A stretch of 64,000 bases of DNA from Eubacteriales bacterium (GTDB lineage Bacteria > Bacillota > Clostridia > Oscillospirales > CAG-272): the NCBI GenBank assembly GCA_045643285.1, contig JAZUKN010000039.1, forward strand, positions 13,770-77,769, read 5' to 3'. Shown here one piece after another: positions 1,282 through 64,000 of the stretch (position 1 is its first letter; every line of letters begins with the position of its first letter). The notes beneath the pieces are model-generated. The model did no database searches, was not told the origin of the DNA, and saw only the letters and a list, made by a program, of their open reading frames with translations. A program made the position numbers and the translations under genes.

Positions 1282-3276
1282 TTAGTCACGCGGCGGCTTG
1301 CCGCGAAGAAATTCGCTGACTTCCTTGTCCTCCATCATGAATTCCTCAGCCGATACGCCGTCGATCGGTGTGATGTATCTCTTCGCCTGCGTCGTGAACA
1401 GCTCATAATACCTGCCGCGGTTCTTCATAAGCTCGGAGTGCGTGCCCGTTTCGATGACTTCGCCGTTCTCGATCACTATGATCTTGTTCGCAACCGTTGC
1501 GCTCGACAGACGGTGAGAAACGAATATCGTAGTTTTATCTTTGCGGAGTCGGTCGAACTGGTTGTATATATCCTGCTCGGCGATAGCGTCAAGGCTGGCT
1601 GTCGGCTCGTCGAGGATGATCACGTCCGAATCCGAATAGAACGCTCTCGCTATCGACAGCTTCTGCCACTGCCCTATTGACAGCTCCGTTCCCGTTTCCT
1701 CAAAATAGCGCATAAGAGGCGTATTGTAGCCGCCCGGCAGTTTTTCGATGAACACGCTCGCCGTCGACTGCTGTGCAGCCTCTTCGACTTTCGCGTCGTC
1801 CGCTTCCTTGCCAATCTGACCGAACATTATGTTTTCCTTGACCGAAACGGCGTACTTCCCGAAGTCCTGGAAGATTATGCCGAACATCGAATAGAGGTCT
1901 TCCGTGTCGTATTCCTTGATGTTGTAGCCGTCGAGAAGAATTTCTCCCTCGGTCGGATCGTACAGACGGGTAAGCAGTTTTATGAGCGTTGTCTTCCCTG
2001 CGCCGTTCACACCGACAAGCACACAGGTGTCTCCGGCGTCTATCGTCAGATTGACGTTGTTCAGCACCTTTCTGTCGTGCCCCGGGTAGACGAACGACAC
2101 GTTACGGAACTCAATTTTATGCCCGACGTGATGCGTAATGCGACGAGGCTCCGGAATACTCGGCTTTATCGTCTGTTCCTCGTTCATGAATCTGATGAGG
2201 TTGTCGATGAACAGCGTGCCTTCGTAGATAGTCGCCGTCGTCGAAATGAGCGAGCTTACTCCCGAACTTATCGCCTGAAGTGCGCCGATATACAGCGAAT
2301 AGTCGCCGACCTGGTACCGCCCGTCCGCTACTCCCTTTGCAATATATACGAACATCACGCAGTTTGCGGCAGTCGCAAGGACGCGAAGCCCGACGTTCCA
2401 CAGTCCCTCTCCGACGAACAGCTTCTTTAGCCCTTTGAAATACTGATCAAACGTCCGCTTGTATCTTCCGACAAAGGTATCCGACAGACCGAAAATCTTG
2501 ATCTCCTTTATCATGTCCTTGTCGGTCAGAACGTCGGAATAGTACGACATCTGCCGTCTCTCTTTCGAGTGGAAGCGGACGTAGAAATAGTTTTTCTTAC
2601 GGTAAGTAAACGTAATGACGGCAGTCGGCAGGCTGAGGATGACGAGGATCAACGGAATGAACTTCGACACCGCCGCAAGCACGATAACGAAAGAGATCAT
2701 ACTGATAACAGTGCTTATCATGTTGAAGTTGTTGTTGAGGATGTGGATAGGTCTCATGCCGGCTTCACGCTTTGCGTTCTCGAATCTCTCGTAGAAATCG
2801 GGATCGTCAAAGGACGCGAGGTCGACCTCCCGCGCCTTACGCATTATCTTGAGGTTTATATGATTCACGACAAGCTCGCCTGCTATGTTGTTGACAATAT
2901 TCGAGAGCAGTGACACAAGTGCCGTCAGCAGATTGAACGCGAACATCAGAACGAGCAATGTCACAACGGAGCGGAACTGATTCTCGCCGCCTGTCGTCAC
3001 GGATATGTACGAATCTGCAAGTGCATTCATCACGTCCTTGCCGATAATCGAGCCGATAACGGGCGTAACGCCGTTCCATATCGCCATAAAGATAAGAAAT
3101 ATGAGGATCCACGGACTTGTTTCCCATACGAGTCCGAAAATATAGAAAAGTCGGTAGAAAAATTTCGTCACCACGCGATAGATATACCCGGGAACTTCAC
3201 GGATATTCTTCGGCTTCGGCTCCTTCATTTTCTCGATCATTCTTTCTCTCTGCAACATTTTGCTGCCCGGTCCCAT
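1282..3276 (-). CDS. ABC exporter, fused permease/ATP-binding protein (multidrug/lipid exporter type)
   Basis: 664 aa with an N-terminal multi-TM domain. The NBD carries Walker A GVNGAGKTT, signature LSIGQWQ, Walker B VIILDEPT and H-loop SHRL. The start is ambiguous among Met 1, 7, 13 and 17. Confidence 0.85.
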   Translation of the reverse strand: MGPGSKMLQRERMIEKMKEPKPKNIREVPGYIYRVVTKFFYRLFYIFGLVWETSPWILIFLIFMAIWNGVTPVIGSIIGKDVMNALADSYISVTTGGENQFRSVVTLLVLMFAFNLLTALVSLLSNIVNNIAGELVVNHINLKIMRKAREVDLASFDDPDFYERFENAKREAGMRPIHILNNNFNMISTVISMISFVIVLAAVSKFIPLILVILSLPTAVITFTYRKKNYFYVRFHSKERRQMSYYSDVLTDKDMIKEIKIFGLSDTFVGRYKRTFDQYFKGLKKLFVGEGLWNVGLRVLATAANCVMFVYIAKGVADGRYQVGDYSLYIGALQAISSGVSSLISTTATIYEGTLFIDNLIRFMNEEQTIKPSIPEPRRITHHVGHKIEFRNVSFVYPGHDRKVLNNVNLTIDAGDTCVLVGVNGAGKTTLIKLLTRLYDPTEGEILLDGYNIKEYDTEDLYSMFGIIFQDFGKYAVSVKENIMFGQIGKEADDAKVEEAAQQSTASVFIEKLPGGYNTPLMRYFEETGTELSIGQWQKLSIARAFYSDSDVIILDEPTASLDAIAEQDIYNQFDRLRKDKTTIFVSHRLSSATVANKIIVIENGEVIETGTHSELMKNRGRYYELFTTQAKRYITPIDGVSAEEFMMEDKEVSEFLRGKPPRD

Positions 3277-3420
3277 TTATCAGTCCTGCTTTCTCTTTTT
3301 CTTTATAATAATATACCAATTATACAATAATCTTCACGTTTTTTCAACCGAATGCCGTTTTTTTCACATAAAAATCAAAAATCCCGACCTTTTCCGATCG
3401 GGATAATGAAGAAAAAACCG

Positions 3421-4101
3421 TTATTCGACAGCGAAGAACTGCGCGGCGACCTCCTCTGCCGAGTCTGTGTAAGACGTGATTGCGACTGTCGCAAAGCGCG
3501 GACCGTTCTTTATGATAACGCTGATAGATTCAAGTGAGAGTCCCATGTAGTCACCGTTCATGTGGAATGCCATTTGAGTCTTTCCTGCAAACTCAAACGA
3601 TTCTCTCACGATAACGAGGTTTTCGACTCCGAGTCCGTCGTATGCTTCCTTGAGCTGTTCATCGGCAATATCCATATAGTCTTCAACGGACATCGTGAGT
3701 CCCTTGAATCCGTCGTTTTCGATGTTTATTTCAATAACACCGTAGTCGGTATTGTTCATGGCGTACATTTCGGTCGCGTACGGCGCCTGTTCAAGAGCCT
3801 TTTCGTAGTCGTCGCCGAAAATATCTCCGAGAGATGAAATAACTTGTTCGTTGAGCTGGCGGATTTCGTCTTCAGTTGCGAATACCCAGTTTTCGTCGAG
3901 TGTTACGCCGATGCCGAGATATTCGCTCTTGTAGGTGTTGCCGTCGACTGTGCCGGGCGAGAATTTTTTGGTCGCGGTTTCGCCGTCCGACGATTCTTTG
4001 ATCTCTTCGCCGATTTTTTCTGCCACTTCGGCAATTTTTCCGCAGGAGACGAGAGAAACGAGCAAAACGAGTGCGAGTAAGAGTGCCGTGATCTTTTTCA
4101 T
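3421..4101 (-). CDS. lipoprotein, function unknown
   Basis: 226 aa with signal peptide MKKITALLLALVLLVSLVSCGK, which contains a lipobox Cys. No family recognised. Confidence 0.65.
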   Translation of the reverse strand: MKKITALLLALVLLVSLVSCGKIAEVAEKIGEEIKESSDGETATKKFSPGTVDGNTYKSEYLGIGVTLDENWVFATEDEIRQLNEQVISSLGDIFGDDYEKALEQAPYATEMYAMNNTDYGVIEINIENDGFKGLTMSVEDYMDIADEQLKEAYDGLGVENLVIVRESFEFAGKTQMAFHMNGDYMGLSLESISVIIKNGPRFATVAITSYTDSAEEVAAQFFAVE

Positions 4102-4188
4102 GTTGTCCTCCGAATGAAATGATTTATTAAATCTGCGACATATTATATCATATTCATTTGGTTAAGTCAAGTTAACCAAATGAAAAAC

Positions 4189-5001
4189 TCATACATCAAG
4201 CGCACTTTCACGCCTGTTAAGTATGATGAATCCGCGCCTGTTCACAAAGTCCGCGCGATTTGCCGTGATCTCCCGCCCGTCAATATCGGTGAATATACCG
4301 CCGGCTTCGGTAACGATGCACTGCATGGCGGCTGTGTCCCATTCTTTCGTCTTCGCGCCGAAGCGGTAGTGTACGTCCGCGCGCCCCTCGGCGATAAGAC
4401 AGCCCTTGAAACAGCTCCCGACGGTTAGGATTTCTACAATTTTCGCTCGATTTTTGTTTATCAGCGCGTCGCTCTCCGCCGTTTTGTAGGAGCGGCTGAC
4501 TGCAAGCACTACCCCGTCCGATCTGTCGGAGACGTGTATTCTTTCTCCCTCTCCGAAAGAAAAACCGCGTCTGTATTCACCGAACGTGAGCTTATACGCA
4601 CCAAGTCCCTCTGCGGCGTAGTATAGAAGCTCCTTTTCGGGTATGGCGATGACTCCTGCCGTAACGCGGTGGCCGCGCGAAAAACCGATAGACACGGCAA
4701 ACTCTCCCGTGCGGTTAACAAACTCCACCGTTCCGTCGAGCGGATCGACAATGAACACGCCGTTTTCGTTCGTCAGTCTCTCTGTGTTGTCTTCGCTTTC
4801 CTCCGAAAGAACGGATGATGCCGGATACGCCTCTCTGAGAAGCGGAAGTATTATTTTCTCCGATGCAAGGTCAGCCGAAGTCACCGGCGATTCGTCCGAT
4901 TTATAATCGACTTTGTATTCTCCGCGGTAGATCTCCGAAATTTTCAGCGATGCGCGGTACGCGGCTTCGCACATCGACGGAATAAGCTCTCTTTCAGTCA
5001 T
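4189..5001 (-). CDS. inositol monophosphatase / 3'(2'),5'-bisphosphate nucleotidase (CysQ-like) family protein
   Basis: 270 aa carrying the family motifs SEESED, VDPLDGT and WDTAA. Confidence 0.75.
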   Translation of the reverse strand: MTERELIPSMCEAAYRASLKISEIYRGEYKVDYKSDESPVTSADLASEKIILPLLREAYPASSVLSEESEDNTERLTNENGVFIVDPLDGTVEFVNRTGEFAVSIGFSRGHRVTAGVIAIPEKELLYYAAEGLGAYKLTFGEYRRGFSFGEGERIHVSDRSDGVVLAVSRSYKTAESDALINKNRAKIVEILTVGSCFKGCLIAEGRADVHYRFGAKTKEWDTAAMQCIVTEAGGIFTDIDGREITANRADFVNRRGFIILNRRESALDV

Positions 5002-5088
5002 ATTTTTCTCCGATCGTGTAATATACTGTAATTATAACCCCGTTAGGCGGAAAAATCAATCGCAGTCCATCTATTTAAGGAGAAAGGT

Positions 5089-5385
5089 ATGAAAAAGAAC
5101 GTTTATTCATCCGGCGTGAGTCGTAAATCCGACAAAAACGAAGAAAAATCAGAATTCAGGCGCGGCTCGCTGTACGGCGGACTGTTCGCGCTCGGCGTTG
5201 TCGCAATATGCGCGTCGCTCGTGATTCCGCTCGGCACAAAAAAAGATACGCTTGAATCGGACACCCGTGACGCCGTCGCCGTGATGAGCACGGAAAACGA
5301 GATCCCTGCAAGCACGGAAGAAGAAAACTCGATATTTGAGCTGATCGGCAATGCGCTCGCCGACATAATAAACGGGCTGAAATGA
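5089..5385 (+). CDS. small membrane protein, unknown function
   Basis: 98 aa with one TM segment (LYGGLFALGVVAICASLVIPL). AGGAGA lies upstream, and its stop overlaps the next ATG as ATGA. Confidence 0.55.
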   Translation: MKKNVYSSGVSRKSDKNEEKSEFRRGSLYGGLFALGVVAICASLVIPLGTKKDTLESDTRDAVAVMSTENEIPASTEEENSIFELIGNALADIINGLK

Positions 5386-5876
5386 TTCTTTTTCCGCTCG
5401 TTCTCGCAGTTCTGCTCCACGAAATCGGGCATATCACGGCGGCGCGGCTCTGCGGTGTTCCGCTCGTTTCGCTGGGGTGGAAAGGGGTGGGGCTGTCGAT
5501 GCAGTTCGACTTCTCGCACGTCGGATATTTGAAAGAAGCACTCATCCATTCGGGCGGCGCGGTGTTCGGCGTGGCAAGTGCAGTTGTTGCGGTACTGCTC
5601 GGCGAAAGATACTACACTTTTGCGGGAATATCGCTCATCCTTGCGGCGGTAAACCTGTATCCGCTTCCCGTGACCGACGGCGGCGCGATAATCAGAACTG
5701 TCCTGTCGGCGTTCTTTCTTCCCGACACCGCCGAAAAAGTAACGAAAGCCGTGTTCACGCTGTCCCTGCTCGCGCTTTGGTCGGCGGTGTTGTGGTGCGA
5801 GCTCCGCGTCGTGCCGAACCTCGGACTTTTGCTGTTCGTGTGCATATTGACTGTATATTCCCTCTGCACCGGATAG
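5382..5876 (+). CDS. minimal site-2 protease (peptidase M50) family protein
   Basis: 164 aa with HEIGH at residues 13-17 and NLYPLPVTDGG (the S2P NxxPxxxxDG motif) in TM segments. It has no PDZ or CBS domain. Confidence 0.7.
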   Translation: MILFPLVLAVLLHEIGHITAARLCGVPLVSLGWKGVGLSMQFDFSHVGYLKEALIHSGGAVFGVASAVVAVLLGERYYTFAGISLILAAVNLYPLPVTDGGAIIRTVLSAFFLPDTAEKVTKAVFTLSLLALWSAVLWCELRVVPNLGLLLFVCILTVYSLCTG

Positions 5877-5945
5877 CTTTTTCGTCTTGCTTTTTCTCCG
5901 CCACTATAGTATAATTTAGAAAAAAGGTGACTGGAGGAAAAAGCG

Positions 5946-6674
5946 GTGTCTGCGTTGATACTCAAGCTGATAGCGGCTGTTTCTATGGCAGTCGACCACA
6001 CTGGACTGATGCTCTTTCCGCGCGCCGAGATACTGCGATATATCGGGCGGCTCGCTTTTCCGATCTATGCGTTCTTCATCTCGGAGGGTTACCGCCACAC
6101 GCACGACAGAGTGAAATATTTCTTACGGGTATTTTTACTCGGCGTGCTGTGCCAGATCGTCTATACCGTCGCCGAAGACGAGCTTTATATCGGGATTTTG
6201 CTGACGTTCTCGTTCTCGATAGCGATAATGGCGTGTTTTTCGCTCTTTAAGCGTACAGTCGCCAAAAGTGACGAAGTCGTACTCGACAAAGCAGGGCGCA
6301 CTGTCGGACAAGTCCTCGCGGCGCTTCTGTGCGTCGTCTCAGTCGGCGCGGCGTACTTCGTTTCGGCAAACATCACGGTCGACTACGGATTTTCGGGGAT
6401 AATGCTTCCGGTGATCTGCTCGGTCACCGACAATAAACCGGTACGGCTCGCGCTGTTCTCCGTCGGACTTGCGGCAGTAGCACTCGAATATGCGTTTCTT
6501 TCGGGGACATTCGTTGCCGCGGACTTCATAAAGCAGGCGTGCGCTCTCGCCGCAGTACCGCTTCTCTTGCTGTACAACGGAAGTCGCGGCAAATACCGAC
6601 TGAAATATTTCTTCTACATCTTCTATCCGGCGCACCTTGCGCTTTTATATCTTATTTCGGTAGTAATTCATTAA
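5946..6674 (+). CDS. TraX family membrane protein
   Basis: 242 aa with a GTG start. LKLIAAVSMAVDHTG..., RLAFPIYAFFISEGYRHT and the multi-TM profile are typical of the TraX family. Confidence 0.7.
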   Translation: MSALILKLIAAVSMAVDHTGLMLFPRAEILRYIGRLAFPIYAFFISEGYRHTHDRVKYFLRVFLLGVLCQIVYTVAEDELYIGILLTFSFSIAIMACFSLFKRTVAKSDEVVLDKAGRTVGQVLAALLCVVSVGAAYFVSANITVDYGFSGIMLPVICSVTDNKPVRLALFSVGLAAVALEYAFLSGTFVAADFIKQACALAAVPLLLLYNGSRGKYRLKYFFYIFYPAHLALLYLISVVIH

Positions 6675-6690
6675 AAAACAGGAGTACGAA

Positions 6691-7338
6691 ATGGCAAAAT
6701 ATCTGTTGTTCGATCTTGACGGAACGCTGACCGATCCGGTGCTCGGCATCACAAACAGCATAATGTATATGCTCAGAAAAGAGGGGCGCGAGGTGCCGCC
6801 GCGTGAAAAGCTGTACTTTTTCATCGGTCCGCCGCTCATTCCGTCGTTTAAGGAAGTGTTCGGAATGACCGACGAAGAGGCGAAAGTCGCGCTGGAGGAG
6901 TACCGCGAATACTTCTCGACAAAGGGCATCTTCGAGAACGAACCGTACCCGGGGATCGCGGACGCGCTTGACAGGCTGAAAAAAGCCGGCTACGTCATCG
7001 GCACTGCAACGTCGAAGCCGGAGGAGTTTGCGGAGAAGATACTCGTACATTTTGATCTGAGGAAGTATTTCGACTGCGTGACAGGTGCGTCCATGGACGA
7101 GAAACGTGTGTCGAAATCGGACGTTATATCCGATGCGCTGGAGAGAATGGGCGCGGACAGAAATGAAACGATCATGATAGGCGACAGAAAGCACGACGTT
7201 GAGGGCGGACAGGCGCAGAACATACCGACGCTCGGCGTTCTGTGGGGCTACGGCTCACGGGACGAGCTTGAAGCCGCCGGCGCGAAGTGGATCGCGGAGA
7301 CGATCGGCGAAATGGCGGAGATAATAGAGAAAAACTGA
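6691..7338 (+). CDS. HAD-IA family hydrolase (phosphoglycolate phosphatase-like)
   Basis: 215 aa with motif I FDLDGTLTD, motif II GTATSK and motif III/IV GDRKHD. Confidence 0.8.
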   Translation: MAKYLLFDLDGTLTDPVLGITNSIMYMLRKEGREVPPREKLYFFIGPPLIPSFKEVFGMTDEEAKVALEEYREYFSTKGIFENEPYPGIADALDRLKKAGYVIGTATSKPEEFAEKILVHFDLRKYFDCVTGASMDEKRVSKSDVISDALERMGADRNETIMIGDRKHDVEGGQAQNIPTLGVLWGYGSRDELEAAGAKWIAETIGEMAEIIEKN

Positions 7339-57519: not shown

Positions 57520-57735
57520 TTTTATTTGGATTTTATCAAGCAGTTTTTGTTGGGACGCTGTCCCAAACCCTGCTCAGAAAACTTTTTCGAGAAAAAGTTT
57601 TCTGAGAACTTTCAAAAAGCTCAATATAACTGTGTCATTGCAGTTTTTGAGGATTCTTAAGGGACTTTTTCCAAAAAGTCCCTTAAGTGGAGTTTGAGGC
57701 AACGCCTCAACAAACCCGAATAATTCCTCCCTCTG
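57520..57735. repeat. type-2 long-palindrome element (copy 2 of 2, extended)
   Basis: ctcagaaaacttttt-cgag-aaaaagttttctgag (57573-57606) has a perfect 15-bp stem. cttaagggacttttt-cc-aaaaagtcccttaag (57656-57687) is also perfect. tggga-cgctg-tccca and ttgaggc-aac-gcctcaa are present as well. Confidence 0.8.
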
Positions 57736-57847
57736 CAACATATTATAGAGTGCAGATAAAATTCGGGATTGACAAAACGCGCCGTTCGGGGTAAAATAAA
57801 GACAGAAGAAAAATCATCACAGTAATAAGAGAAAAGGGACGAATACA

Positions 57848-58180
57848 ATGGATAACGAAAACAGAAACAACGAGATCGAAGAAAACGAAGAATTCGATTC
57901 CGAGATCTACACTCTCACAGACGAAGACGGCACGGAGCTGAATTTCGCGCTTCTCGGCACGCTTGAGCACGAGGGCAACATCTATAAGGCAATGGTTCCG
58001 TGCGACGAAAACGGAGAGGAAACGAGCGAAGAATACGTTATTCTGAAGCTCACAAAGGACGAGAACGGCGAAGACCTGCTCGAAACGATCGACGACGATG
58101 ACGAATTTGACCGCATCGCCGACATCTTCGACGACGAGTTCTCCGACATCCTCTACGACGAACCCGAAGAAAACAAATAA
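57848..58180 (+). CDS. DUF1292 domain protein
   Basis: 110 aa and acidic. I.L.DEDG.E..F..L......G..Y....P is characteristic of DUF1292. Confidence 0.7.
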   Translation: MDNENRNNEIEENEEFDSEIYTLTDEDGTELNFALLGTLEHEGNIYKAMVPCDENGEETSEEYVILKLTKDENGEDLLETIDDDDEFDRIADIFDDEFSDILYDEPEENK

Positions 58181-58474
58181 ACAGGCGAAGCACATTTTTC
58201 TTGCCGGATCTGCTTTCTTTCCACCGTGAGCATAAAAACCCACAAAGAGTAAAAAGGAGCTCGGTCTTCCGATGCAGGTTGCAGACCTCCCTCCTGTGCC
58301 GTGAGTCGCATTCCGCGCCGCCGCACAGACAGGACGCTGGGAGCACAAAACACCGGAGAGAGCACCATCCCTGGACAAACAGGGTTTCTGTATGCTTGCG
58401 GTGGAATGGAAGCAGACTGGCGGCGGAAAAGTGTGTTTTTGTTTCATTTCACGCCGAAAGGAATTGACAGAATT

Positions 58475-59365
58475 ATGCTTGACGTATGTATCCCGGGGAC
58501 AGGCGGAACAGTGCCGAAGCTCGAACGGTTTCTCGCCTGCTGTTATATGCGCTATAACGGCGCGGGGCTTCTTATCGACTGCGGCGAGGGAACACAGCTT
58601 GCGGTCAAGAAAGCAGGCTTCTCCCTCGGAAAAATCACAACAATACTGCTCACGCACTTCCATGCCGATCACTGCAGCGGACTTCCGGGGCTTCTTCTTT
58701 CCATGGGTAACGAGGGACACACGGACACGCTTCTCATCTGCGGACCGAAAGGCGTCGACGAGGTAGTGCGGTCTCTTATGCACATCTGTCAGGAGCTTCC
58801 GTTCCGCGTAGAGACTCGTGTGCTCGGCGACTTTGATTCGTTCGAGAGGGACGGATTTTCTGTGACATCGTTCGAGGTGCGCCACTCCTGCCCGTGCCTC
58901 GGCTACGACATACGCATAAACCGCGCCGGACGGTTCGATACCGAAAAAGCGAAAAGAAACGGCGTGCCGGTCGCACTGTGGTCGCGTCTGCAAAAGGGCG
59001 AAGAGATCGACGGATACACAAAAGACATGGTGCTCGGAGAAAGCCGCCGCGGTATCCATGTGACTTACTCAACGGACACGCGCCCGTCCGATATGATCTC
59101 GACAATGGCGACGGAGGCGGATCTCCTTATATGCGAGGGAATGTTCGAGAGCGAAAAGCTCGACCGCGCAAAGGAGTCGTCGCACATGACCGTCACGGAG
59201 GCGGCTCACCTTGCAGAGGAAAGCGGATGCCGCGAGCTGTGGCTGACGCACTTCTCCCCTGCTCTGCCCGATCCGTCGGTGTGCATAGGCGAAGCAAAAG
59301 CGATATTCCCGAACACCGAAGCAGGCGTCGACGGAATGACGAAAGTGATAAGATTTGACGAATAA
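58475..59365 (+). CDS. rnz: ribonuclease Z (metallo-beta-lactamase fold)
   Basis: 296 aa from ATG 58475 with GTGG..P...R, LIDCGEGTQ, THFHADHCSGLPGLL and a C-terminal LTHFS. Confidence 0.85.
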   Translation: MLDVCIPGTGGTVPKLERFLACCYMRYNGAGLLIDCGEGTQLAVKKAGFSLGKITTILLTHFHADHCSGLPGLLLSMGNEGHTDTLLICGPKGVDEVVRSLMHICQELPFRVETRVLGDFDSFERDGFSVTSFEVRHSCPCLGYDIRINRAGRFDTEKAKRNGVPVALWSRLQKGEEIDGYTKDMVLGESRRGIHVTYSTDTRPSDMISTMATEADLLICEGMFESEKLDRAKESSHMTVTEAAHLAEESGCRELWLTHFSPALPDPSVCIGEAKAIFPNTEAGVDGMTKVIRFDE

Positions 59366-59400
59366 CATAACAAAACCGGATGAGGTAGTTTCTCATCCGG
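59305..59400 (+). repeat. direct repeat 1 (3' end of rnz plus its terminator hairpin)
   Basis: attcccgaacaccgaagcaggcgtcgacggaatgacgaaagtgataagatttgacgaataaca...ccggatgaggtagtttctcatccgg is repeated at 60748-60841. Confidence 0.9.
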
Positions 59401-59406
59401 TGTTTT
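59376..59406 (+). terminator. rnz terminator
   Basis: The stem ccggatgag/ctcatccgg is followed by tgtttttt. Confidence 0.8.
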
Positions 59407-59430
59407 TTATATATTGATTCAGAAGTATAG

Positions 59431-59667
59431 TTAATCCCGAAAGTCAAACAGTTCTTTGGGCGTGACCTCAAGAACTTCACATAACTTAAAAATTACATCA
59501 AAAGATACACCGACATTTCCAAGCTCTATCGCGCTGATATGACTTCTGTCAATATCGACAAGCTCGGCAAGCTGAAGCTGTGTCAGTTTTTTGCGTTTTC
59601 TGTAATACACTACGTTTAACCCGAACTTTTCGTACAAGATTTTGTATTCAGATTTCACCAATATCAC
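59431..59667 (-). CDS. XRE-family helix-turn-helix transcriptional regulator
   Basis: 78 aa with KLTQLQLAELVDIDRSHISAIELG (HTH_3-like). Confidence 0.8.
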   Translation of the reverse strand: MILVKSEYKILYEKFGLNVVYYRKRKKLTQLQLAELVDIDRSHISAIELGNVGVSFDVIFKLCEVLEVTPKELFDFRD

Positions 59668-59730
59668 CTCAATTAATATTTTATATTGAGTGTTGTCTAA
59701 AATAAACCTTGTGAAACAAACGTAATGCTA

Positions 59731-59759
59731 TTGACACAAGTCAAAAAATGTTGTATAAT
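59731..59759 (+). promoter_or_regulatory. consensus sigma-70 promoter facing the Ltp-like gene
   Basis: TTGACA, exactly 17 nt of spacer and TATAAT, divergent from the XRE gene. Confidence 0.7.
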
Positions 59760-59936
59760 ATCATTAAAAGAATTCTTGTGTCGGTTGTGCCAAAAAGGCA
59801 GCATGAAAGAGGAAGCGAAAAAGATAAAGCGTGGCTGCAGCACAGTTTTCCGCTATGTGCATGAGTTTGAATCCGCTGTCGGAGCGGCGGGAGCTGTTAT
59901 TAATAGCAAATCATAATGAAGCAAAAGGAGACAGTT

Positions 59937-60635
59937 ATGGCAAAAAGTAAAATGACGCAATGCAAGGCGTGTGGAGCAGAGGTGGCTAAGTCTGCAAAAG
60001 TATGTCCTCACTGTGGAGCAAAGAATAAACAGCCTATTTTTAAGAAGTGGTGGTTTTGGGTAATCATTGTGTGTATTCTCGTTGGTGCGATTGTTGGTGG
60101 TAATGGTAACAAGACCTCCACAAATAATAGTGATCTCGTCACGGAGACGGAACCTTATAGAACTACAAAAACCACAGAAACTACAACAGAACCGACAGAA
60201 TCTATGACCACTGCTCAGAAAAATGCCCTGAAAGCTGCAAAGAACTATTTGAGTTTTTCTGCTTTTTCTCATGATGGACTTGTAAAACAGTTGGAATTTG
60301 AACAGTATTCCACTGAGGATGCAGTTTACGCAGCGGATAACTGTGGTGCTGATTGGAATGAGCAGGCTGTAAAGGCTGCAAAGAACTATTTGAGTTTCTC
60401 TGCTTTTTCTCATGATGGACTTATCGAGCAACTTGAATTTGAAAAATATACCATCGAACAGGCTACATATGGTGCAGATAATTGTGGCGCAGATTGGTTT
60501 GAACAAGCTGCCAAGAGTGCTAAAAACTATTTGAATTTTTCTTCTTTCTCAAAAGATGGATTGATCCAGCAGCTTGAATTTGAAAAATTCACCCATGAAC
60601 AAGCAGTATATGGAGCAGAACAGAACGGATATTGA
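59937..60635 (+). CDS. membrane-anchored protein with three Ltp-type (phage superinfection-exclusion lipoprotein-like) repeats
   Basis: 232 aa from ATG 59937, with AAGGAG 7 nt upstream. It has an N-terminal zinc ribbon (CKACG...CPHCG), a TM segment and a Thr-rich linker. Three ~48-aa repeats follow (A.K.AKNYL.FS.FS.DGL..QLEFE.....A.YGA...GADW.EQA). Confidence 0.65.
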   Translation: MAKSKMTQCKACGAEVAKSAKVCPHCGAKNKQPIFKKWWFWVIIVCILVGAIVGGNGNKTSTNNSDLVTETEPYRTTKTTETTTEPTESMTTAQKNALKAAKNYLSFSAFSHDGLVKQLEFEQYSTEDAVYAADNCGADWNEQAVKAAKNYLSFSAFSHDGLIEQLEFEKYTIEQATYGADNCGADWFEQAAKSAKNYLNFSSFSKDGLIQQLEFEKFTHEQAVYGAEQNGY

Positions 60636-60747
60636 TACTCTCACGGAGCGGGGCGCGTGTCTCGCTCTTCTTCTGCCTATTCGCAAAAGTACACCTTTAC
60701 AAACGGCGCAAAACAACGTTTATTTATGTCCGTTATTTGCCGAAAAC

Positions 60748-60841
60748 ATTCCCGAACACCGAAGCAGGCGTCGACGGAATGACGAAAGTGATAAGATTTG
60801 ACGAATAACAAAAAAGCCGGATGAGGTAGTTTCTCATCCGG
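60748..60841 (+). repeat. direct repeat 2 (orphan copy of the rnz 3' end plus terminator hairpin)
   Basis: The 63-nt segment is identical to 59305-59367 and the hairpin ccggatgaggtagtttctcatccgg is identical. Only the short linker differs. Confidence 0.9.
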
Positions 60842-61018
60842 TTTTTGCTATAAAAAGAATCAGCCGCAAAAAAGCCGCCCTCTCAGAGGGAGGGGGACCG
60901 CTTGCGGTGGAAGGAGTGTCCTGAACTTGTTGATCTGCTAAAAAATCTGTAACACACTCTCCCTCAGTCAACTTCGTTGACAGCTTCCTCCCGGAGGGAG
61001 CCATATTATCAGATCATC
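60842..61018. repeat. palindrome-rich spacer
   Basis: Contains ccctctcagaggg, accgcttgcggt, gtcaacttcgttgac and ctcccggagggag. It is bounded by near-identical terminator hairpins at 60811-60852 and 61019-61058. Confidence 0.55.
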
Positions 61019-61024
61019 AAAAGA

Positions 61025-61048
61025 CCGGATGAGGTAATTCTCATCCGG
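61025..61048. terminator. third copy of the terminator hairpin (serves the rubrerythrin gene on the minus strand)
   Basis: ccggatgaggtaattctcatccgg is flanked by A/T runs, and the following gtttttgctat matches 60841-60851. Confidence 0.7.
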
Positions 61049-61066
61049 TTTTTGCTATGTTTTATC

Positions 61067-61609
61067 TCAGAAGTATCTCTTGAGCAGTCCTGCAAACGCT
61101 TTACCGTGGCGGGCTTCGTCGCGTGCCATTTCGTGAACTGTGTCGTGGATCGCGTCGAGATTTGCGGCTTTTGCCATTCTCGCAAGCTCAGTCTTGCCGG
61201 CTGTCGCGCCGTTCTCTGCGGCTACGCGCATTTCAAGATTCTTCTTTGTGGAATCCGTAACGACTTCGCCGAGCATTTCAGCGAACTTAGATGCGTGTTC
61301 AGCCTCTTCGTATGCTGCCTTTTCCCAGTAAAGGGCGATTTCCGGGTATCCCTCGCGTGCGGCAACTCTTGCCATTGCGAGATACATACCCACTTCACAG
61401 CACTCGCCGTTGAAGTTTGCGCGAAGTCCTTCCTTGATCTCTTCGGGAACGTCCTTTGCAACGCCGACAACGTGCTCTGCTGCCCATGTCATATCGTCTT
61501 CCTTGATCTCGACAAACTTTTCTCCGGGTGCCTTGCAGGTCGGGCAGGACTCCGGTCTTGTTTCGCTTTCTACGATCTCACCGCAGATAAGGCATTTCCA
61601 TTTTTTCAT
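61067..61609 (-). CDS. rbr: reverse rubrerythrin (N-terminal rubredoxin-like, C-terminal ferritin-like)
   Basis: 180 aa with N-terminal CLICG...CPTC. Di-iron ExxH motifs lie in the C-terminal four-helix part ([20 protein letters not shown]). Confidence 0.85.
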
Positions 61610-61665
61610 TTTCGTTTCTCCTTTGTGTTGTTTATTTGTACCGCAAAACGCGGTTCTTGACAGTT

Positions 61666-62283
61666 TTATTCGACCTTTTCAAAATCGGACGCACCGTGCT
61701 TGCATATCGGGCAGACAAAATCTTCGGGAAGCTCGTCTCCCTCGTATTCGTAGCCGCAGACGGAGCATTTCCATACGGTCTTGCCGTTCTCTTTCACGAT
61801 TTTTTCGGGCTTCGGTTTTATGTTTGAATGGTAGTACGCATAGGTTGCCGACGGAGCGGACGAAAGCACCTTGCCGTCAGTCAGCGTTGCTATGACGAGA
61901 ATGTGACTGCCAAGGTCGATCTTCTCTTCAACGTGCGCGCAGAGATATGCGTTCGTGCCTGCCGTTACGGCGAGAGTGCCGTTCGATACACGTTCGCAAT
62001 CGTCAAAACCGTCGAACTTTTCGGCGTCTCTGCCGGACTGAAAACCGAACCGCTTGAAAAGCGAAAAATCCGCGTCTTCGCTTATCACCGAGAGGGTTAT
62101 CTCGTCGGTGTAGCCGAGCATTTCGGCTGTGAAGTTCGCTTTGTTGACTGCGACGGCGATCCTGTCGGGATTCGACGCGACCTGAATCCCCGTGTTGACT
62201 ATACATCCGTTGTCGCGCTTTCCGCAGTGGACGGACAGCACGAAAAGCCCGTATGTGAGCGAAAACATAGCTTTGTTATCCAT
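61666..62283 (-). CDS. flavin reductase-like domain fused to C-terminal rubredoxin (high-molecular-weight rubredoxin type)
   Basis: 205 aa from ATG 62283, with AAGGAG upstream. It has a flavin-reductase-like N-domain and a C-terminal [12 protein letters not shown]...FVCPICKH. Confidence 0.75.
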
Positions 62284-62680
62284 TTTTGTTCTCCTTTTTC
62301 TTACCGATGCAGTCGGGACATATTCCCGTGAACCGCATTTCGGCGCGTTCAAGCGAAAAACCGGTCAGCCTCTCGGCGTCACCTATGATCCCGTCGGGAA
62401 CGGACACGGGGAACACGTCGATGACCTTGCCGCAGACAGAGCAGACGGCGTGCGTGTGCGGTGCGACTGTGCCGTCGAAGCGTTCCTGCCCGTCGACTGT
62501 GCCCACAGAGCGGATCAGTCCGTCGCGCTTCATTTCGGAGAGATTGCGGTAAACTGTCGCAAGGCTGAGGTGGGGAAAAGCGGGCTTCAGTCGGGTGTAT
62601 ATCCACTCGGCGGTCGGGTGAGCGGTGGTGCTTCTGAGACATTCAAGGATCGCGTCTCGCTTCGCGCTGTGCCGTTTCAT
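62276..62680 (-). CDS. perR: Fur-family transcriptional regulator (PerR-like by context)
   Basis: 134 aa with a winged-helix N-terminus (R..IL..L.....HPTAEWIY..L......LSLATVYRNL), H.H and two CxxC pairs (CSVCG, CPDC). It overlaps the downstream gene by 8 nt. Confidence 0.75.
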   Translation of the reverse strand: MKRHSAKRDAILECLRSTTAHPTAEWIYTRLKPAFPHLSLATVYRNLSEMKRDGLIRSVGTVDGQERFDGTVAPHTHAVCSVCGKVIDVFPVSVPDGIIGDAERLTGFSLERAEMRFTGICPDCIGKKKENKNG

Positions 62681-62696
62681 GTTTTCTCCTTAATAA

Positions 62697-62711
62697 TAAT
62701 GATTATCATTA
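62697..62711. promoter_or_regulatory. Fur/PerR-type operator (perfect 7-1-7 palindrome)
   Basis: TAATGATtATCATTA lies between the -10 element and the RBS of the perR-like gene. With flanks it matches the classical 19-bp Fur box GATAATGATAATCATTATC at 16/19 positions. Confidence 0.65.
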
Positions 62712-62716
62712 CTGAT

Positions 62717-62744
62717 ATTATAACACAAATTGTCGAAAAGTCAA
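62717..62744 (-). promoter_or_regulatory. sigma-70 promoter of the perR-like operon
   Basis: On the minus strand: TTGACT, a 16-nt spacer and TATAAT. Confidence 0.6.
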
Positions 62745-62749
62745 GAATA

Positions 62750-62880
62750 ATTTGAAAACGTCCCCGACGTTTTCTTCCTTTTGCCTATATAAAAGAACAA
62801 AGCGTTCGACGAGAGACCAATGGTCTCTCCTACGGTTAAAAGGTGAAGTACCGTGCGTTGCCGTGAGATTCTCCGAAATC
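62750..62880 (+). repeat. hairpin-array element, truncated unit R8 (A + J only, direct)
   Basis: A lies at 62754-62774, followed by ttccttttgcctatataaa as in R1. The J unit has the variant stem gagagacc-aa-tggtctctc, then CCTACGG and GCCGTGAGATT. Confidence 0.8.
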
Positions 62881-62922
62881 TCCTCTTTCCCGAAAGAAAA
62901 CAAAAATCTTGATACTTTTCTC

Positions 62923-62951
62923 TTGACATCCCACGCAGTGTGTGGTATACT
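62923..62951 (+). promoter_or_regulatory. sigma-70 promoter of tRNA-Ile2
   Basis: TTGACA, a 17-nt spacer and TGgTATACT (extended -10), 11 nt upstream of the tRNA 5' end. Confidence 0.65.
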
Positions 62952-62962
62952 TTCATCTGTAC

Positions 62963-63036
62963 GGACCATTAGCTCAGTTGGTTAGAGCTCCCGGCTCATA
63001 ACCGGTCGGTCCTAGGTTCGAGTCCTAGATGGTCCA
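62963..63036 (+). tRNA. tRNA with CAU anticodon, tRNA-Ile2 (lysidine) type
   Basis: ggaccattagctcagttggttagagctcccggCTCATAAccggtcggtcctaggttcgagtcctagatggtcca closely resembles Bacillus tRNA-Ile(CAU) in its acceptor, D arm and anticodon loop. No CCA is encoded. Confidence 0.8.
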
Positions 63037-63097
63037 CGGAGAAAAAAGGCAAGTCGCAAGGCTTGCTTTTTTCAGTAGAAAAACAGGAGGTACGGAA

Positions 63098-63892
63098 ATG
63101 CTCGGAGCTATCTGCGGCGATATAATCGGATCATACTATGAAGTCCACTGTACAAAGGATTACGATTTCCCATTCAACAAGGACAGCACCTTTACGGATG
63201 ACAGCGTTCTCATCGCGGCTGTCTGCAAAGCAATACTGTATGACCCGTCCGACATCTCAAAATGGCATCTTCGCGCCCGTGCCGGAGAATACGCCGCGCA
63301 GTACCGTCGGTTTTATTCGTATTTCCCCGATGCAGGATTCGGCAATATGTTTGCCGAGTGGGCAAGAAATCCGTACGCAAAAAACGGACACAGCTATGCA
63401 AACGGTGCTTCGATGCGCGTAATTCCGATCGGGTATGCGTACAAAACGCTTGAAGAGACTCTCCTCCAGGCAAAAGCAAGTGCTCTTCCGACTCACGGCA
63501 ACCGTGAAGCGATCAGAGGCGCGCAGGCAGTTGCCACCGCTGTTTTTATGGCTCGAAACGGAGAAACGAAAGACGCAATAAAAAATTCCCTCGAAAAAAC
63601 TTTTCATTACAAGCTGTCAACGCCACTTTCCGCTATCAAAGAAACCCACGTTTTCAACTGCCGCACTTCATACAGCGTTCCGCCCGCGATAATTGCGTTT
63701 CTTGAATCGACGGACTATGAAAGCGCTGTCAGAAACGCCGTCTCTTTGGGCGGTGACGCCGACACACAGGCGTGCATCGCAGAAGCATACTATAAAGTAA
63801 TTCCGGAGCATATCATACATTTCTGCGACGGAAAAATCGACAGCTCAATAAGAAAAACCGTAAAAGAGTTTTCCGAAAAATATGTGAAATAA
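63098..63892 (+). CDS. ADP-ribosylglycohydrolase family protein
   Basis: 264 aa from ATG 63098, with AGGAGG upstream. GAICGDIIGS..E......F......FTDDSVL..AV and the C-terminal GGDADTQACIA are family hallmarks. Confidence 0.75.
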   Translation: MLGAICGDIIGSYYEVHCTKDYDFPFNKDSTFTDDSVLIAAVCKAILYDPSDISKWHLRARAGEYAAQYRRFYSYFPDAGFGNMFAEWARNPYAKNGHSYANGASMRVIPIGYAYKTLEETLLQAKASALPTHGNREAIRGAQAVATAVFMARNGETKDAIKNSLEKTFHYKLSTPLSAIKETHVFNCRTSYSVPPAIIAFLESTDYESAVRNAVSLGGDADTQACIAEAYYKVIPEHIIHFCDGKIDSSIRKTVKEFSEKYVK

Positions 63893-64000
63893 CGACACCG
63901 TATGGAATCATCACTTCTGCCGCTATGGCAGGGGTGATTTTTGTTTTTCGCCGTCATTTCCGCCTGCAACCGTTCATATACTCTACCGTAAAGTCTGCGC

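What the first reader, a model, noticed from the sequence alone, without database searches (positions are those of the whole stretch)
59305..60841. 1.35-kb XRE + Ltp-like cassette inserted at the 3' end of rnz, flanked by a ~95-nt duplication
The last 61 nt of rnz, its stop codon and its terminator hairpin (59305-59400) are repeated at 60748-60841. The 63-nt segment and the 25-nt hairpin are identical; only the linker differs. Between the repeats lie three things.
- A divergent XRE-type repressor gene.
- A textbook TTGACA-17-TATAAT promoter.
- A gene for a membrane-anchored protein with three Ltp-type repeats.

Duplication of a gene's 3' end is the classical footprint of site-specific integration (attL/attR) that reconstitutes the target gene. 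No integrase or excisionase lies between the repeats. This is therefore either a decayed prophage or island moron retaining only an immunity/exclusion module, or a small element mobilised in trans.
Basis: partly seen in the sequence, partly recalled or inferred. Interest (0 to 1): 0.65.

Follow-up and report, generated by a model that had tools for sequence, protein, structure and literature searches.

The report
Integrase-less XRE/Ltp cassette in a terminator
A small foreign two-gene cassette (a regulator plus a probable phage-blocking surface protein) sits in the shared terminator of two converging host genes, flanked by a 124-base copy of that site; a sister strain has the site empty, and the cassette carries no recombinase.

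Summary
The exact repeat is 63 nt (59305-59367 = 60748-60810) plus an identical 25-nt hairpin.

A sister strain (L281; Rnz 99% identical, flanks ~97%) has the empty site: rnz, 53 nt, then rubrerythrin (rbr). Against it, the insert is 59429-60747 (1319 nt) and the duplicated target is 124 nt. A second, nested insertion of REP-like repeats (60852-61020) duplicates 39 nt around the same hairpin.

Compared with the empty allele, copy 1 has the native left side of the hairpin and a non-native right side. Copy 2 is the reverse. This places one reciprocal exchange in or at the hairpin, so the incoming DNA carried its own mimic of the target.

- The cassette is compositionally foreign, unique in the genome, and absent from 52 other species of the genus.
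- It is present in two further strains.
- It holds no recombinase.
- Its 75-aa XRE is not phage-typical. It belongs to a very conserved clostridial family that is always divergent from a variable envelope-protein gene and rarely lies near recombinases.
- Terminator or gene-end duplications flank similar modules elsewhere, including two more small inserts in this genome.

"Decayed prophage" is not supported. "Small element integrated in trans" is plausible, but the enzyme is unknown.

The parts
58475..59365 (+). rnz (RNase Z, 296 aa), the intact target gene
   Evidence: NCBIfam NF000801, 321.5 bits against a cut-off of 252. Its C-terminus matches relatives.
59305..59428 (.). Repeat copy 1 (attL-like), 124 nt. 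In order: rnz 3' end, native linker, hairpin, non-native spacer TGTTTTTTATATATTGAT, then TCAGAAGTAT (the first 10 nt of the rbr 3' end).
   Evidence: L281 positions 24-1790 align to window 57664-59428. Four-way alignment A3.
59376..59400 (.). Hairpin 1: 9-bp arms and a 7-nt loop. It is a bidirectional intrinsic terminator and the inferred exchange point.
59429..60747 (.). Inserted foreign DNA, 1319 nt, GC 0.40
   Evidence: Absent from the empty allele L281. Composition. Unique in the genome.
59431..59658 (-). XRE-family regulator, 75 aa (here called XRE75). Its size and type resemble R-M controller (C) proteins.
   Evidence: Pfam HTH_3. PADLOC 'Control_protein' E=6e-12. 2860 homologous clusters, the best 120 at 87-95% identity.
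59704..59743 (.). Conserved operator-like region, ACCTTGTG..N..CACAAGTCA (contains TGAC-N4-GTCA). It overlaps the -35 box of the Ltp promoter.
   Evidence: The motifs GACTTGTGTCAA and CACAAGGTTTAT are >=90% conserved in 76 loci. Binding is inferred.
59731..59759 (+). Sigma-70-type promoter TTGACA-17-TATAAT for the Ltp-like gene
   Evidence: 12 of 12 consensus positions
59793..59851 (+). 59-nt segment of the Ltp leader present only in this strain. It lies inside a possible 37-codon small ORF (59803-59916).
   Evidence: Missing from L282 and L283
59937..60635 (+). Membrane-anchored Ltp-like protein, 232 aa: N-terminal Zn-ribbon, one TM helix, T/E/P-rich linker and 3 Ltp repeats
   Evidence: Pfam PF07553 x3, E=3e-42. 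PHROG 4980 'superinfection exclusion' E=1e-65. PDB 4eqq.
60748..60851 (.). Repeat copy 2 (attR-like). In order: orphan rnz 3' end (63 nt), non-native linker CAAAAAAG, hairpin, native spacer start TTTTTGCTAT.
   Evidence: L281 positions 1667-1772 align to window 60748-60851. Alignment A3.
60817..60841 (.). Hairpin 2, identical to hairpin 1
60852..61020 (.). Second, nested insertion: a cluster of REP/MITE-like dispersed repeats. It is flanked by a 39-nt duplication centred on the hairpin (L281 positions 1734-1772).
   Evidence: Absent from L281. About 33 sub-element matches on 19 other contigs of the genome.
61025..61048 (.). Hairpin 3 (loop GTAATT), followed by the native spacer and the rbr stop codon
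61067..61609 (-). Rubrerythrin (rbr), the converging neighbour of rnz in the empty allele
   Evidence: Pfam. L281 gene order.

Best explanation
A 1.3-kb horizontally acquired two-gene cassette has integrated into the single bidirectional terminator shared by the converging genes rnz and rubrerythrin.

**Integration.** It was one reciprocal, Campbell-type exchange. The crossover maps in or at the 25-bp terminator hairpin (9-7-9 inverted repeat). The incoming DNA carried its own 124-nt mimic of the target: the rnz 3' end, a linker, the hairpin, a spacer and 10 nt of the rbr end. Its A/T tracts differ from the host's. The integrated form is therefore bracketed by 124-nt direct repeats, and rnz, rbr and both cassette genes each keep a terminator. 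The cassette encodes no recombinase, so the exchange was catalysed in trans. The enzyme could be a host or other-element site-specific recombinase acting on the hairpin, or RecA acting on the homology. It is not identified.

**Function (inferred).** The 75-aa XRE binds the conserved operator that overlaps the consensus promoter, and so controls itself and the divergent gene. That gene encodes a Zn-ribbon/TM-anchored protein displaying three Ltp repeats outside the cell. By analogy with Ltp of phage TP-J34, it would block DNA entry of some phages.
For: **Shown: it is an insertion.**
- Empty site in sister-strain contig L281: rnz, 53 nt, rbr; flanks 96.8-97.3% identical.
- The cassette is present at the same junction in L283, which has the sister-type rnz allele, and in L282.
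- XRE is absent from 52 other species of the genus.
- Cassette GC3 is 0.33-0.43 against 0.57-0.67 for host genes.
- The cassette is unique in the genome.

**Shown: phasing against the empty allele (A3).**
- Copy 1 is native linker + hairpin + non-native spacer.
- Copy 2 is non-native linker + hairpin + native spacer.
- The non-native spacer travels with the cassette in all three strains.
- Differences are 0 of 64 in the rnz block against about 12 of 27 in the linker and spacer (Fisher p=6e-8). The two copies were therefore not born identical.

**Shown: no recombinase in cis**.

**Shown: domain content.** Pfam, PHROG and PDB matches for Ltp. Operator conserved in 76 loci.

**Inferred.** The identity of the enzyme, XRE binding to the operator, and phage exclusion (Ltp function from PMC3952083).
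Against: - No attP or circular form was found, and no donor element carrying the target mimic. Exact-pattern scans of viral and JGI metagenome contigs gave nothing.
- It is unexplained why an element recombining at the hairpin should also carry 63 nt of rnz and 10 nt of rbr.
- Mapping the crossover assumes no later gene conversion, yet conversion seems to occur. This strain's copy 1 shares two variants with copy 2 that sister strains lack.
- The duplicated hairpins of similar cassettes share no sequence. That argues against one sequence-specific recombinase for all of them.
- L282 has a different sequence left of the hairpin loop. This is unexplained.
- The protein has no lipobox, so it is not a lipoprotein like Ltp. 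Exclusion activity is untested.
Confidence: 0.55

Rival explanations
1. Structure-targeted insertion with a long target-site duplication. A break with widely staggered nicks around an extruded terminator hairpin is filled in after foreign DNA is joined, which duplicates 30-124 nt. The filled allele later spreads within the species by homologous recombination. The same process would insert REP clusters and other small cassettes.
For: - The same hairpin was hit twice: a 124-nt and a 39-nt duplication.
- Two further small low-GC inserts in this genome are flanked by 45-50-nt and 122-nt duplications of a terminator or gene end. One of them is another XRE + divergent-gene pair.
- A REP composite on contig C19 is flanked by a duplicated 25-nt hairpin.
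- In other genomes, XRE75 modules are flanked by duplicated terminators (L157, L182) or duplicated gene 3' ends (L149, L193).
- Flanking repeats occur in 8 of 57 real anchors against 3 of 149 shifted control positions.
- The duplicated hairpins share no sequence.
Against: - Here the two copies differ sharply in the linker and spacer but not in 63+25+10 nt. The differences are reciprocal around the hairpin. A fill-in duplication predicts identical copies.
- No known bacterial mechanism gives staggers of 30-124 nt.
- In L193 the 'duplicate' encloses a gene that also sits next to the target gene in the relative L156, which lacks the duplicate. That case is therefore not a simple target duplication.
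- The shifted controls fall mostly in coding DNA, so the enrichment is overstated.
Confidence: 0.22
2. Remnant of a prophage, ICE or IME that integrated site-specifically at the rnz 3' end and lost everything except a repressor/exclusion module. This would be a CIME in the strict sense.
For: - Direct repeats that include a gene 3' end are the usual footprint of tyrosine-integrase elements. CIMEs are defined as decayed elements that keep attL and attR (PMC5704250).
- Ltp-like genes sit in lysogeny modules next to integrases in many prophage contigs: L031, L132 and L129.
- Viral contig L259 has a 75%-identical XRE and a similar Zn-ribbon/TM partner between two recombinase genes.
Against: - There is no pseudogene or fragment of an integrase or phage gene. 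The XRE stop codon lies 2 nt from the repeat.
- The same minimal cassette is found in three strains.
- The XRE family is essentially absent from phage collections and rarely lies near recombinases.
- No prophage contig abuts rnz.
- No second copy of the att sequence exists in the genome.
- Independent cassettes of the same minimal design occur in this genome and in others.
Confidence: 0.15
3. Assembly artefact or an old, fixed local duplication of no mobile origin.
For: The genome is a 106-contig MAG, and read-level checks were impossible.
Against: - Independent assemblies from other samples reproduce both junction types: filled (L283, L282) and empty (L281).
- The repeat (63 nt exact) is shorter than the assembler k-mer suggested by the contig names (k141).
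- The cassette is absent from all genus relatives examined.
Confidence: 0.02

Closest known systems
CIMEs (cis-mobilizable elements) of streptococci, such as those at the fda 3' end next to ICESt1/ICESt3
   Same: An integrase-less segment bracketed by attL/attR-like direct repeats that include the 3' end of a host gene. Any mobility must be provided in trans (definition in PMC5704250).
   Different: - CIMEs are decay products of ICEs or IMEs and usually sit in tandem with a related element. Here there are no remnants, no cognate element and no second att copy in the genome.
- The repeat is a full 124-nt mimic of a bidirectional terminator region.
- The cargo is a recurrent, minimal XRE + envelope-protein design.
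Ltp superinfection-exclusion lipoprotein of Streptococcus thermophilus phage TP-J34 (Pfam PF07553)
   Same: The same repeat domain, here in three copies, displayed outside the membrane behind a flexible spacer. PHROG annotates the family as superinfection exclusion (PMC3952083).
   Different: - It is anchored by an N-terminal Zn-ribbon and a TM helix rather than a lipobox.
- It has three repeats, not two.
- It is not in a prophage between int and a repressor. It is driven from a divergent promoter under a small XRE.
- Its activity is untested.
Controller (C) proteins of restriction-modification systems
   Same: A roughly 75-aa XRE-type HTH protein whose gene lies next to a palindromic operator that overlaps the promoters. 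The best PADLOC match is 'Control_protein'.
   Different: No R-M genes are present. The partner genes are envelope proteins. The operator sequence is a family of its own. The resemblance rests on size and profile only.
Minimal mobile elements of Neisseria, IS26 translocatable units and pdif modules (cassettes moved without their own recombinase)
   Same: Cassettes of one to three genes that are polymorphic between strains at a fixed site and encode no mobility gene (MMEs: PMC1797815).
   Different: - MMEs are exchanged by double crossover in conserved flanking genes and do not duplicate the target.
- IS26 units and pdif modules are bounded by IS copies or Xer sites, not by a copy of a host gene end plus terminator (from general knowledge, not tested here).

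Membership tests
Ltp family (PF07553, TP-J34 type) | Ltp repeat domain(s) | tested here: met
   Three stretches of PF07553, E=3.2e-42. PDB 4eqq E=5.7e-11. PHROG 4980 E=1e-65.
Ltp family (PF07553, TP-J34 type) | Lipoprotein signal peptide with a lipobox for the membrane anchor | tested here: not met
   The N-terminus is a CxxC..CxxC Zn-ribbon (PF13248/PF13240) followed by one hydrophobic helix. No lipobox is visible in the sequence.
Ltp family (PF07553, TP-J34 type) | Blocks phage DNA injection (superinfection exclusion) | not testable with these tools
   Function is known only for the TP-J34 and TP-778 proteins (PMC3952083).
CIME / decayed integrative element | Flanked by attL and attR that derive from integration into a host site | tested here: met
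   124-nt direct repeats. The empty site in L281 holds a single copy.
CIME / decayed integrative element | Derived from an ICE, IME or prophage (remnants of integration or transfer genes, or a related intact element with the same att) | tested here: not met
   No such ORFs lie between the repeats. There is no other att copy in the genome. Viral and metagenome scans found no related element. The XRE is absent from phage records.
CIME / decayed integrative element | Excision or mobilisation by an integrase supplied in trans | not testable with these tools
The genome encodes 9 Tyr and 5 Ser recombinases elsewhere.
Prophage remnant | Genes of phage type other than morons | tested here: not met
   Only the Ltp-like gene matches a specific phage family. 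The XRE has no match in 50,697 phages. The cassette DNA gives one 12% match.
Transposon / IS | Transposase, terminal inverted repeats and a short target duplication of fixed length | tested here: not met
   There is no transposase ORF. The repeat search reported no inverted repeats at the two insert ends. The duplication is 124 nt and mosaic.
RNase Z (rnz) | Match above the curated equivalog cut-off | tested here: met
   NF000801, 321.5 bits against 252.
'XRE75 + divergent envelope-protein' module (described here, not a curated family) | 75-aa XRE at >=85% identity, the conserved operator/promoter DNA, and a divergent gene for a secreted or membrane protein | tested here: met
   XRE identity 86-97%. 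Operator conserved. Partners are lipoproteins, Zn-ribbon/TM, SHOCT or LRR proteins.

The most novel reading that the evidence does not exclude
Small integrase-less cassettes built as 'XRE controller + divergent promoter + envelope protein', and also REP clusters, may be inserted into intrinsic terminators or gene 3' ends of Clostridia by an undescribed mechanism. It would be hairpin- (structure-) directed and would duplicate 30-124 nt of the target, so that every gene keeps a terminator. The rnz cassette would be one strain-polymorphic example caught with its empty site.
Probability: 0.22. Interest if true: 0.8.

Novelty: new variant of a known kind. Interest (0 to 1): 0.62.

Why it matters
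- It gives a clean pair of filled and empty alleles for a two-gene cassette that integrates without its own recombinase. The exchange point is mapped to a terminator hairpin.
- It links that cassette to a very widespread, unusually conserved XRE family that always controls a variable cell-envelope gene in gut and rumen Clostridia. Such modules may be a common and overlooked way for these bacteria to acquire surface and anti-phage functions.
- If the recurrent terminator duplications reflect one mechanism, it would be a new route of gene insertion that preserves transcription termination on all sides.

Tried and rejected
- **Exact-pattern scans.** Scans of the rnz-end repeat found nothing in viral contigs or JGI metagenome contigs.
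- **Cassette DNA against GenBank phages.** One 12% match only.
- **Rnz profile against viral contigs.** This looked for prophages abutting rnz. It found only mid-contig rnz genes in large contigs.
- **Genus relatives.** 19 rnz loci have no cassette and no duplication, but downstream synteny is not conserved. They are not true empty sites. The closest Rnz contigs (85-87% identical) are likewise different species.
- **L127 against L128.** These looked like two contexts for one Ltp cassette but are the same locus.
- **L244 against L245.** These differ only from a REP-like stretch onward, so they are uninformative.
- **Empty site for the L149 (yebC) case.** I searched relatives of G453. yebC is found, but the downstream synteny is lost. 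Which copy is native could not be decided.
- **Cassette tail, leader and XRE-downstream segments.** No conserved end motif appears in any other locus.
- **Rfam.** Nothing was significant in the leader or the repeats.
Full report
**1. Observation**

- A 63-nt exact direct repeat, 59305-59367 = 60748-60810, covers the end of rnz and its stop codon.
- It is followed, after a linker that differs, by an identical 25-nt hairpin at 59376-59400 and 60817-60841.
- A third copy of the hairpin, with a different loop, lies at 61025-61048, just before the stop of a converging rubrerythrin gene (rbr). No other copy exists in the 2.3-Mb genome.
- rnz is a bona fide RNase Z.

Between the repeats lie three features.
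- A 75-aa XRE/HTH_3 gene on the minus strand.
- A perfect TTGACA-17-TATAAT promoter.
- A gene for a Zn-ribbon + TM protein with three Ltp repeats.

The stretch is GC 0.40 against 0.53-0.57 for the flanking genes. GC3 is 0.33-0.43 against 0.57-0.67. No recombinase lies between the repeats. The nearest is a serine recombinase about 27 kb away at the end of the contig.

**2. The empty site**

The 90%-identity cluster of the Rnz protein held a member that is 99% identical to ours. Its contig is L281, from another sample.
- L281 reads DUF1292 gene, rnz, 53 nt, rbr, flavin-reductase/rubredoxin gene, Fur gene, ADP-ribosylglycohydrolase gene. This is the gene order of the window without the cassette.
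- Its flanks are 96.8-97.3% identical to the window.
- L281 positions 24-1790 match window 57664-59428. Positions 1667-1772 match 60748-60851. Positions 1734-4725 match 61021-64000.

Three conclusions follow.
- The insert is 59429-60747, 1319 nt.
- The duplicated target is 124 nt. It runs from 58 nt before the rnz stop codon to 10 nt inside the rbr 3' end (TCAGAAGTAT).
- The REP-like stretch 60852-61020 is a second, nested insertion. It is flanked by a 39-nt duplication centred on the same hairpin. Its sub-elements give about 33 matches on 19 other contigs of the genome.

Two more contigs from other samples carry the cassette at 97.5-99.6% identity.
- L283 has the same left junction in a strain with the sister-type rnz allele.
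- L282 contains the cassette and the orphan rnz end. Left of the hairpin loop it continues with an unrelated sequence, which I cannot explain.

The XRE is absent from 52 other species of the genus. It occurs at >=89% identity in only 3 of 400 other genomes of the order. None of 19 rnz loci in the genus has a duplication. The insertion is therefore real, specific to this species and polymorphic among its strains. An artefact or an old fixed duplication is excluded.

**3. How it was integrated**

The four-way alignment (A3) lets the arms be phased against the empty allele.
- Copy 1 keeps the native linker to the left of the hairpin. To the right it has a non-native spacer (8 of 18 positions differ), then the native TCAGAAGTAT.
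- Copy 2 has a non-native linker to the left of the hairpin and the native spacer to the right.
- The non-native spacer accompanies the cassette in all three strains.

This reciprocal pattern is what a single crossover in or at the hairpin gives. The partners would be the chromosome and an incoming molecule carrying its own 124-nt version of the site.

A fill-in target duplication predicts two identical copies. Instead, differences are 0 of 64 in the rnz block against about 12 of 27 in the linker and spacer (p=6e-8).

The hairpin has 9-bp inverted arms around 7 nt. That is the geometry of core sites of tyrosine recombinases (general knowledge, not tested). With RecA the 63-nt identical block would be the likelier crossover place. 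Both points lean towards site-specific recombination in trans, but weakly.
- Gene conversion between the copies seems to occur. This strain's copy 1 shares two variants with copy 2 that L281 and L283 lack.
- It remains unexplained why the element carries rnz-like and rbr-like arms.

After integration, each of the four genes still faces a hairpin with a U-tract.

**4. What the cassette is**

The Ltp-like gene has relatives in many prophage lysogeny modules, next to integrases. It also occurs in integrase-less divergent pairs with other XRE types.

The XRE changes the picture.
- It is 86-97% identical in protein to thousands of XREs across Oscillospiraceae, Ruminococcus, Acutalibacteraceae, Christensenellaceae and others, but only about 73-79% identical in DNA.
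- In 76 loci the intergenic DNA keeps GACTTGTGTCAA...CACAAGGTTTAT, which overlaps the partner's -35 box.
- The divergent partner is variable and is nearly always an envelope protein: lipoproteins, Zn-ribbon/TM proteins, SHOCT membrane proteins, an LRR lipoprotein and giant surface proteins.
- Only 5 of 80 loci have a recombinase within 5 kb.
- The family has no match in 50,697 phage genomes. It has one distant plasmid match. One of 2.9 M viral contigs matches at >=85%.
- Across genomes its GC3 follows host GC (r=0.75). Most copies are therefore long-term residents. The copy here is compositionally foreign.

The 'phage immunity repressor' reading is therefore not supported. The pair looks like a portable regulator-plus-surface-protein module, and the Ltp version probably serves phage exclusion (inferred).

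**5. A wider pattern**

Flanking direct repeats are enriched at XRE75 modules: 8 of 57 real anchors against 3 of 149 shifted controls. The controls are imperfect because they fall mostly in coding DNA.

Clear cases in other genomes:
- Duplicated terminator hairpins around the low-GC module in L157 and L182.
- Duplicated gene 3' ends in L149 (74 nt of yebC; the orphan copy keeps its own stop codon) and L193 (99 nt of a rhodanese gene).
- L193 is not a simple case. Its relative L156 has the module at the same place without the duplicate.

In this genome a scan for local, non-dispersed repeats found two more small low-GC inserts.
- Another XRE + divergent-gene pair lies between converging genes, flanked by a 45-50-nt duplicated terminator (contig C58).
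- A single membrane-protein gene is flanked by a 122-nt duplication of a carboxypeptidase gene end (contig C57). Its six mismatches are clustered and fall mostly at third-codon positions.

The duplicated hairpins share no sequence. This keeps open a structure-directed insertion mechanism that is not yet described. I rate it at about 0.2.

**6. Comparison with known systems**

- The nearest formal category is the CIME, an integrase-less element that keeps attL and attR (PMC5704250). The defining origin from a decayed ICE, IME or prophage was tested and not met.
- The protein carries the Ltp domain but fails the lipoprotein criterion.
- The XRE resembles R-M controller proteins in size and profile only.
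- Neisseria minimal mobile elements share the cassette logic but not the target duplication (PMC1797815).

I file the finding as a new variant of a known kind.

**7. Limits**

- No donor or attP form was found.
- The enzyme, the XRE-operator interaction and the phage-exclusion function are all inferred.

Noticed in passing
window 60852-61020 (also G000 C19:10793-10931): A cluster of REP/MITE-like GC-rich palindromic units, with about 33 sub-element matches on 19 other contigs of the genome. It is a strain-specific insertion flanked by a 39-nt duplication of the terminator hairpin. A related composite on contig C19 is flanked by a duplicated 25-nt hairpin.
   Followed up: partly
window 59431-59658 and loci L146-L225: The 75-aa XRE is 86-97% identical in protein across several clostridial families but only about 75% identical in DNA. 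The operator is conserved. The divergent partner gene is always different and encodes a secreted or membrane protein. No curated family name was found for it.
   Followed up: partly
G000 C58:121981-122836: A second small low-GC insert (756 nt) lies between converging genes. It is another XRE-type HTH gene divergent from an unknown gene, and it is flanked by a 45-50-nt duplication of a terminator hairpin.
   Followed up: partly
G000 C57:36105-37584: A 1.24-kb low-GC insert holds one 399-aa multi-TM protein gene. It is flanked by a 122-nt duplication of the 3' end of an M32-type carboxypeptidase gene. All six mismatches fall in the first 30 nt.
   Followed up: partly
L282 (Logan DRR858109), last 27 nt of the locus as stored (first 27 nt in window orientation): In this sample the left arm and part of the loop of hairpin 1 are replaced by ATTGTCCGTTTTTTACGGACTTGTGCA. 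That sequence contains another hairpin and the 8-mer GACTTGTG of the XRE operator. It could be a second integration site, a parent element or a rearrangement.
   Followed up: no
window 59793-59851: A 59-nt segment in the Ltp leader is present in this strain but absent from L282 and L283. It lies within a possible 37-codon ORF (59803-59916) that is followed by a hairpin at 59872-59891.
   Followed up: no
L259 (IMGVR_UViG_3300029521_000013) 3473-7001: This viral contig has a 75%-identical XRE and a Zn-ribbon/TM partner whose N-terminus closely resembles the anchor of the Ltp-like protein. The pair sits between a tyrosine integrase gene and a small serine recombinase gene.
   Followed up: no
G000 contigs C43 (1764 nt) and C78 (1748 nt): Both contigs have identical 141-nt ends, so they are circular or tandem assembly products of about 1.6 kb. 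C78 holds a 442-aa signal-peptide protein gene.
   Followed up: no
L133-L142 (metagenome contigs of one abundant species): The XRE75 + 207-aa lipoprotein pair borders a strain-variable stretch carrying AbiEii, HEPN, methyltransferase and other defence-type genes.
   Followed up: no
G000 C39:101794-102054 (outside the window): A large serine recombinase gene lies at the end of the contig, about 27 kb downstream of the cassette. It has no visible link to the rnz repeats.
   Followed up: no
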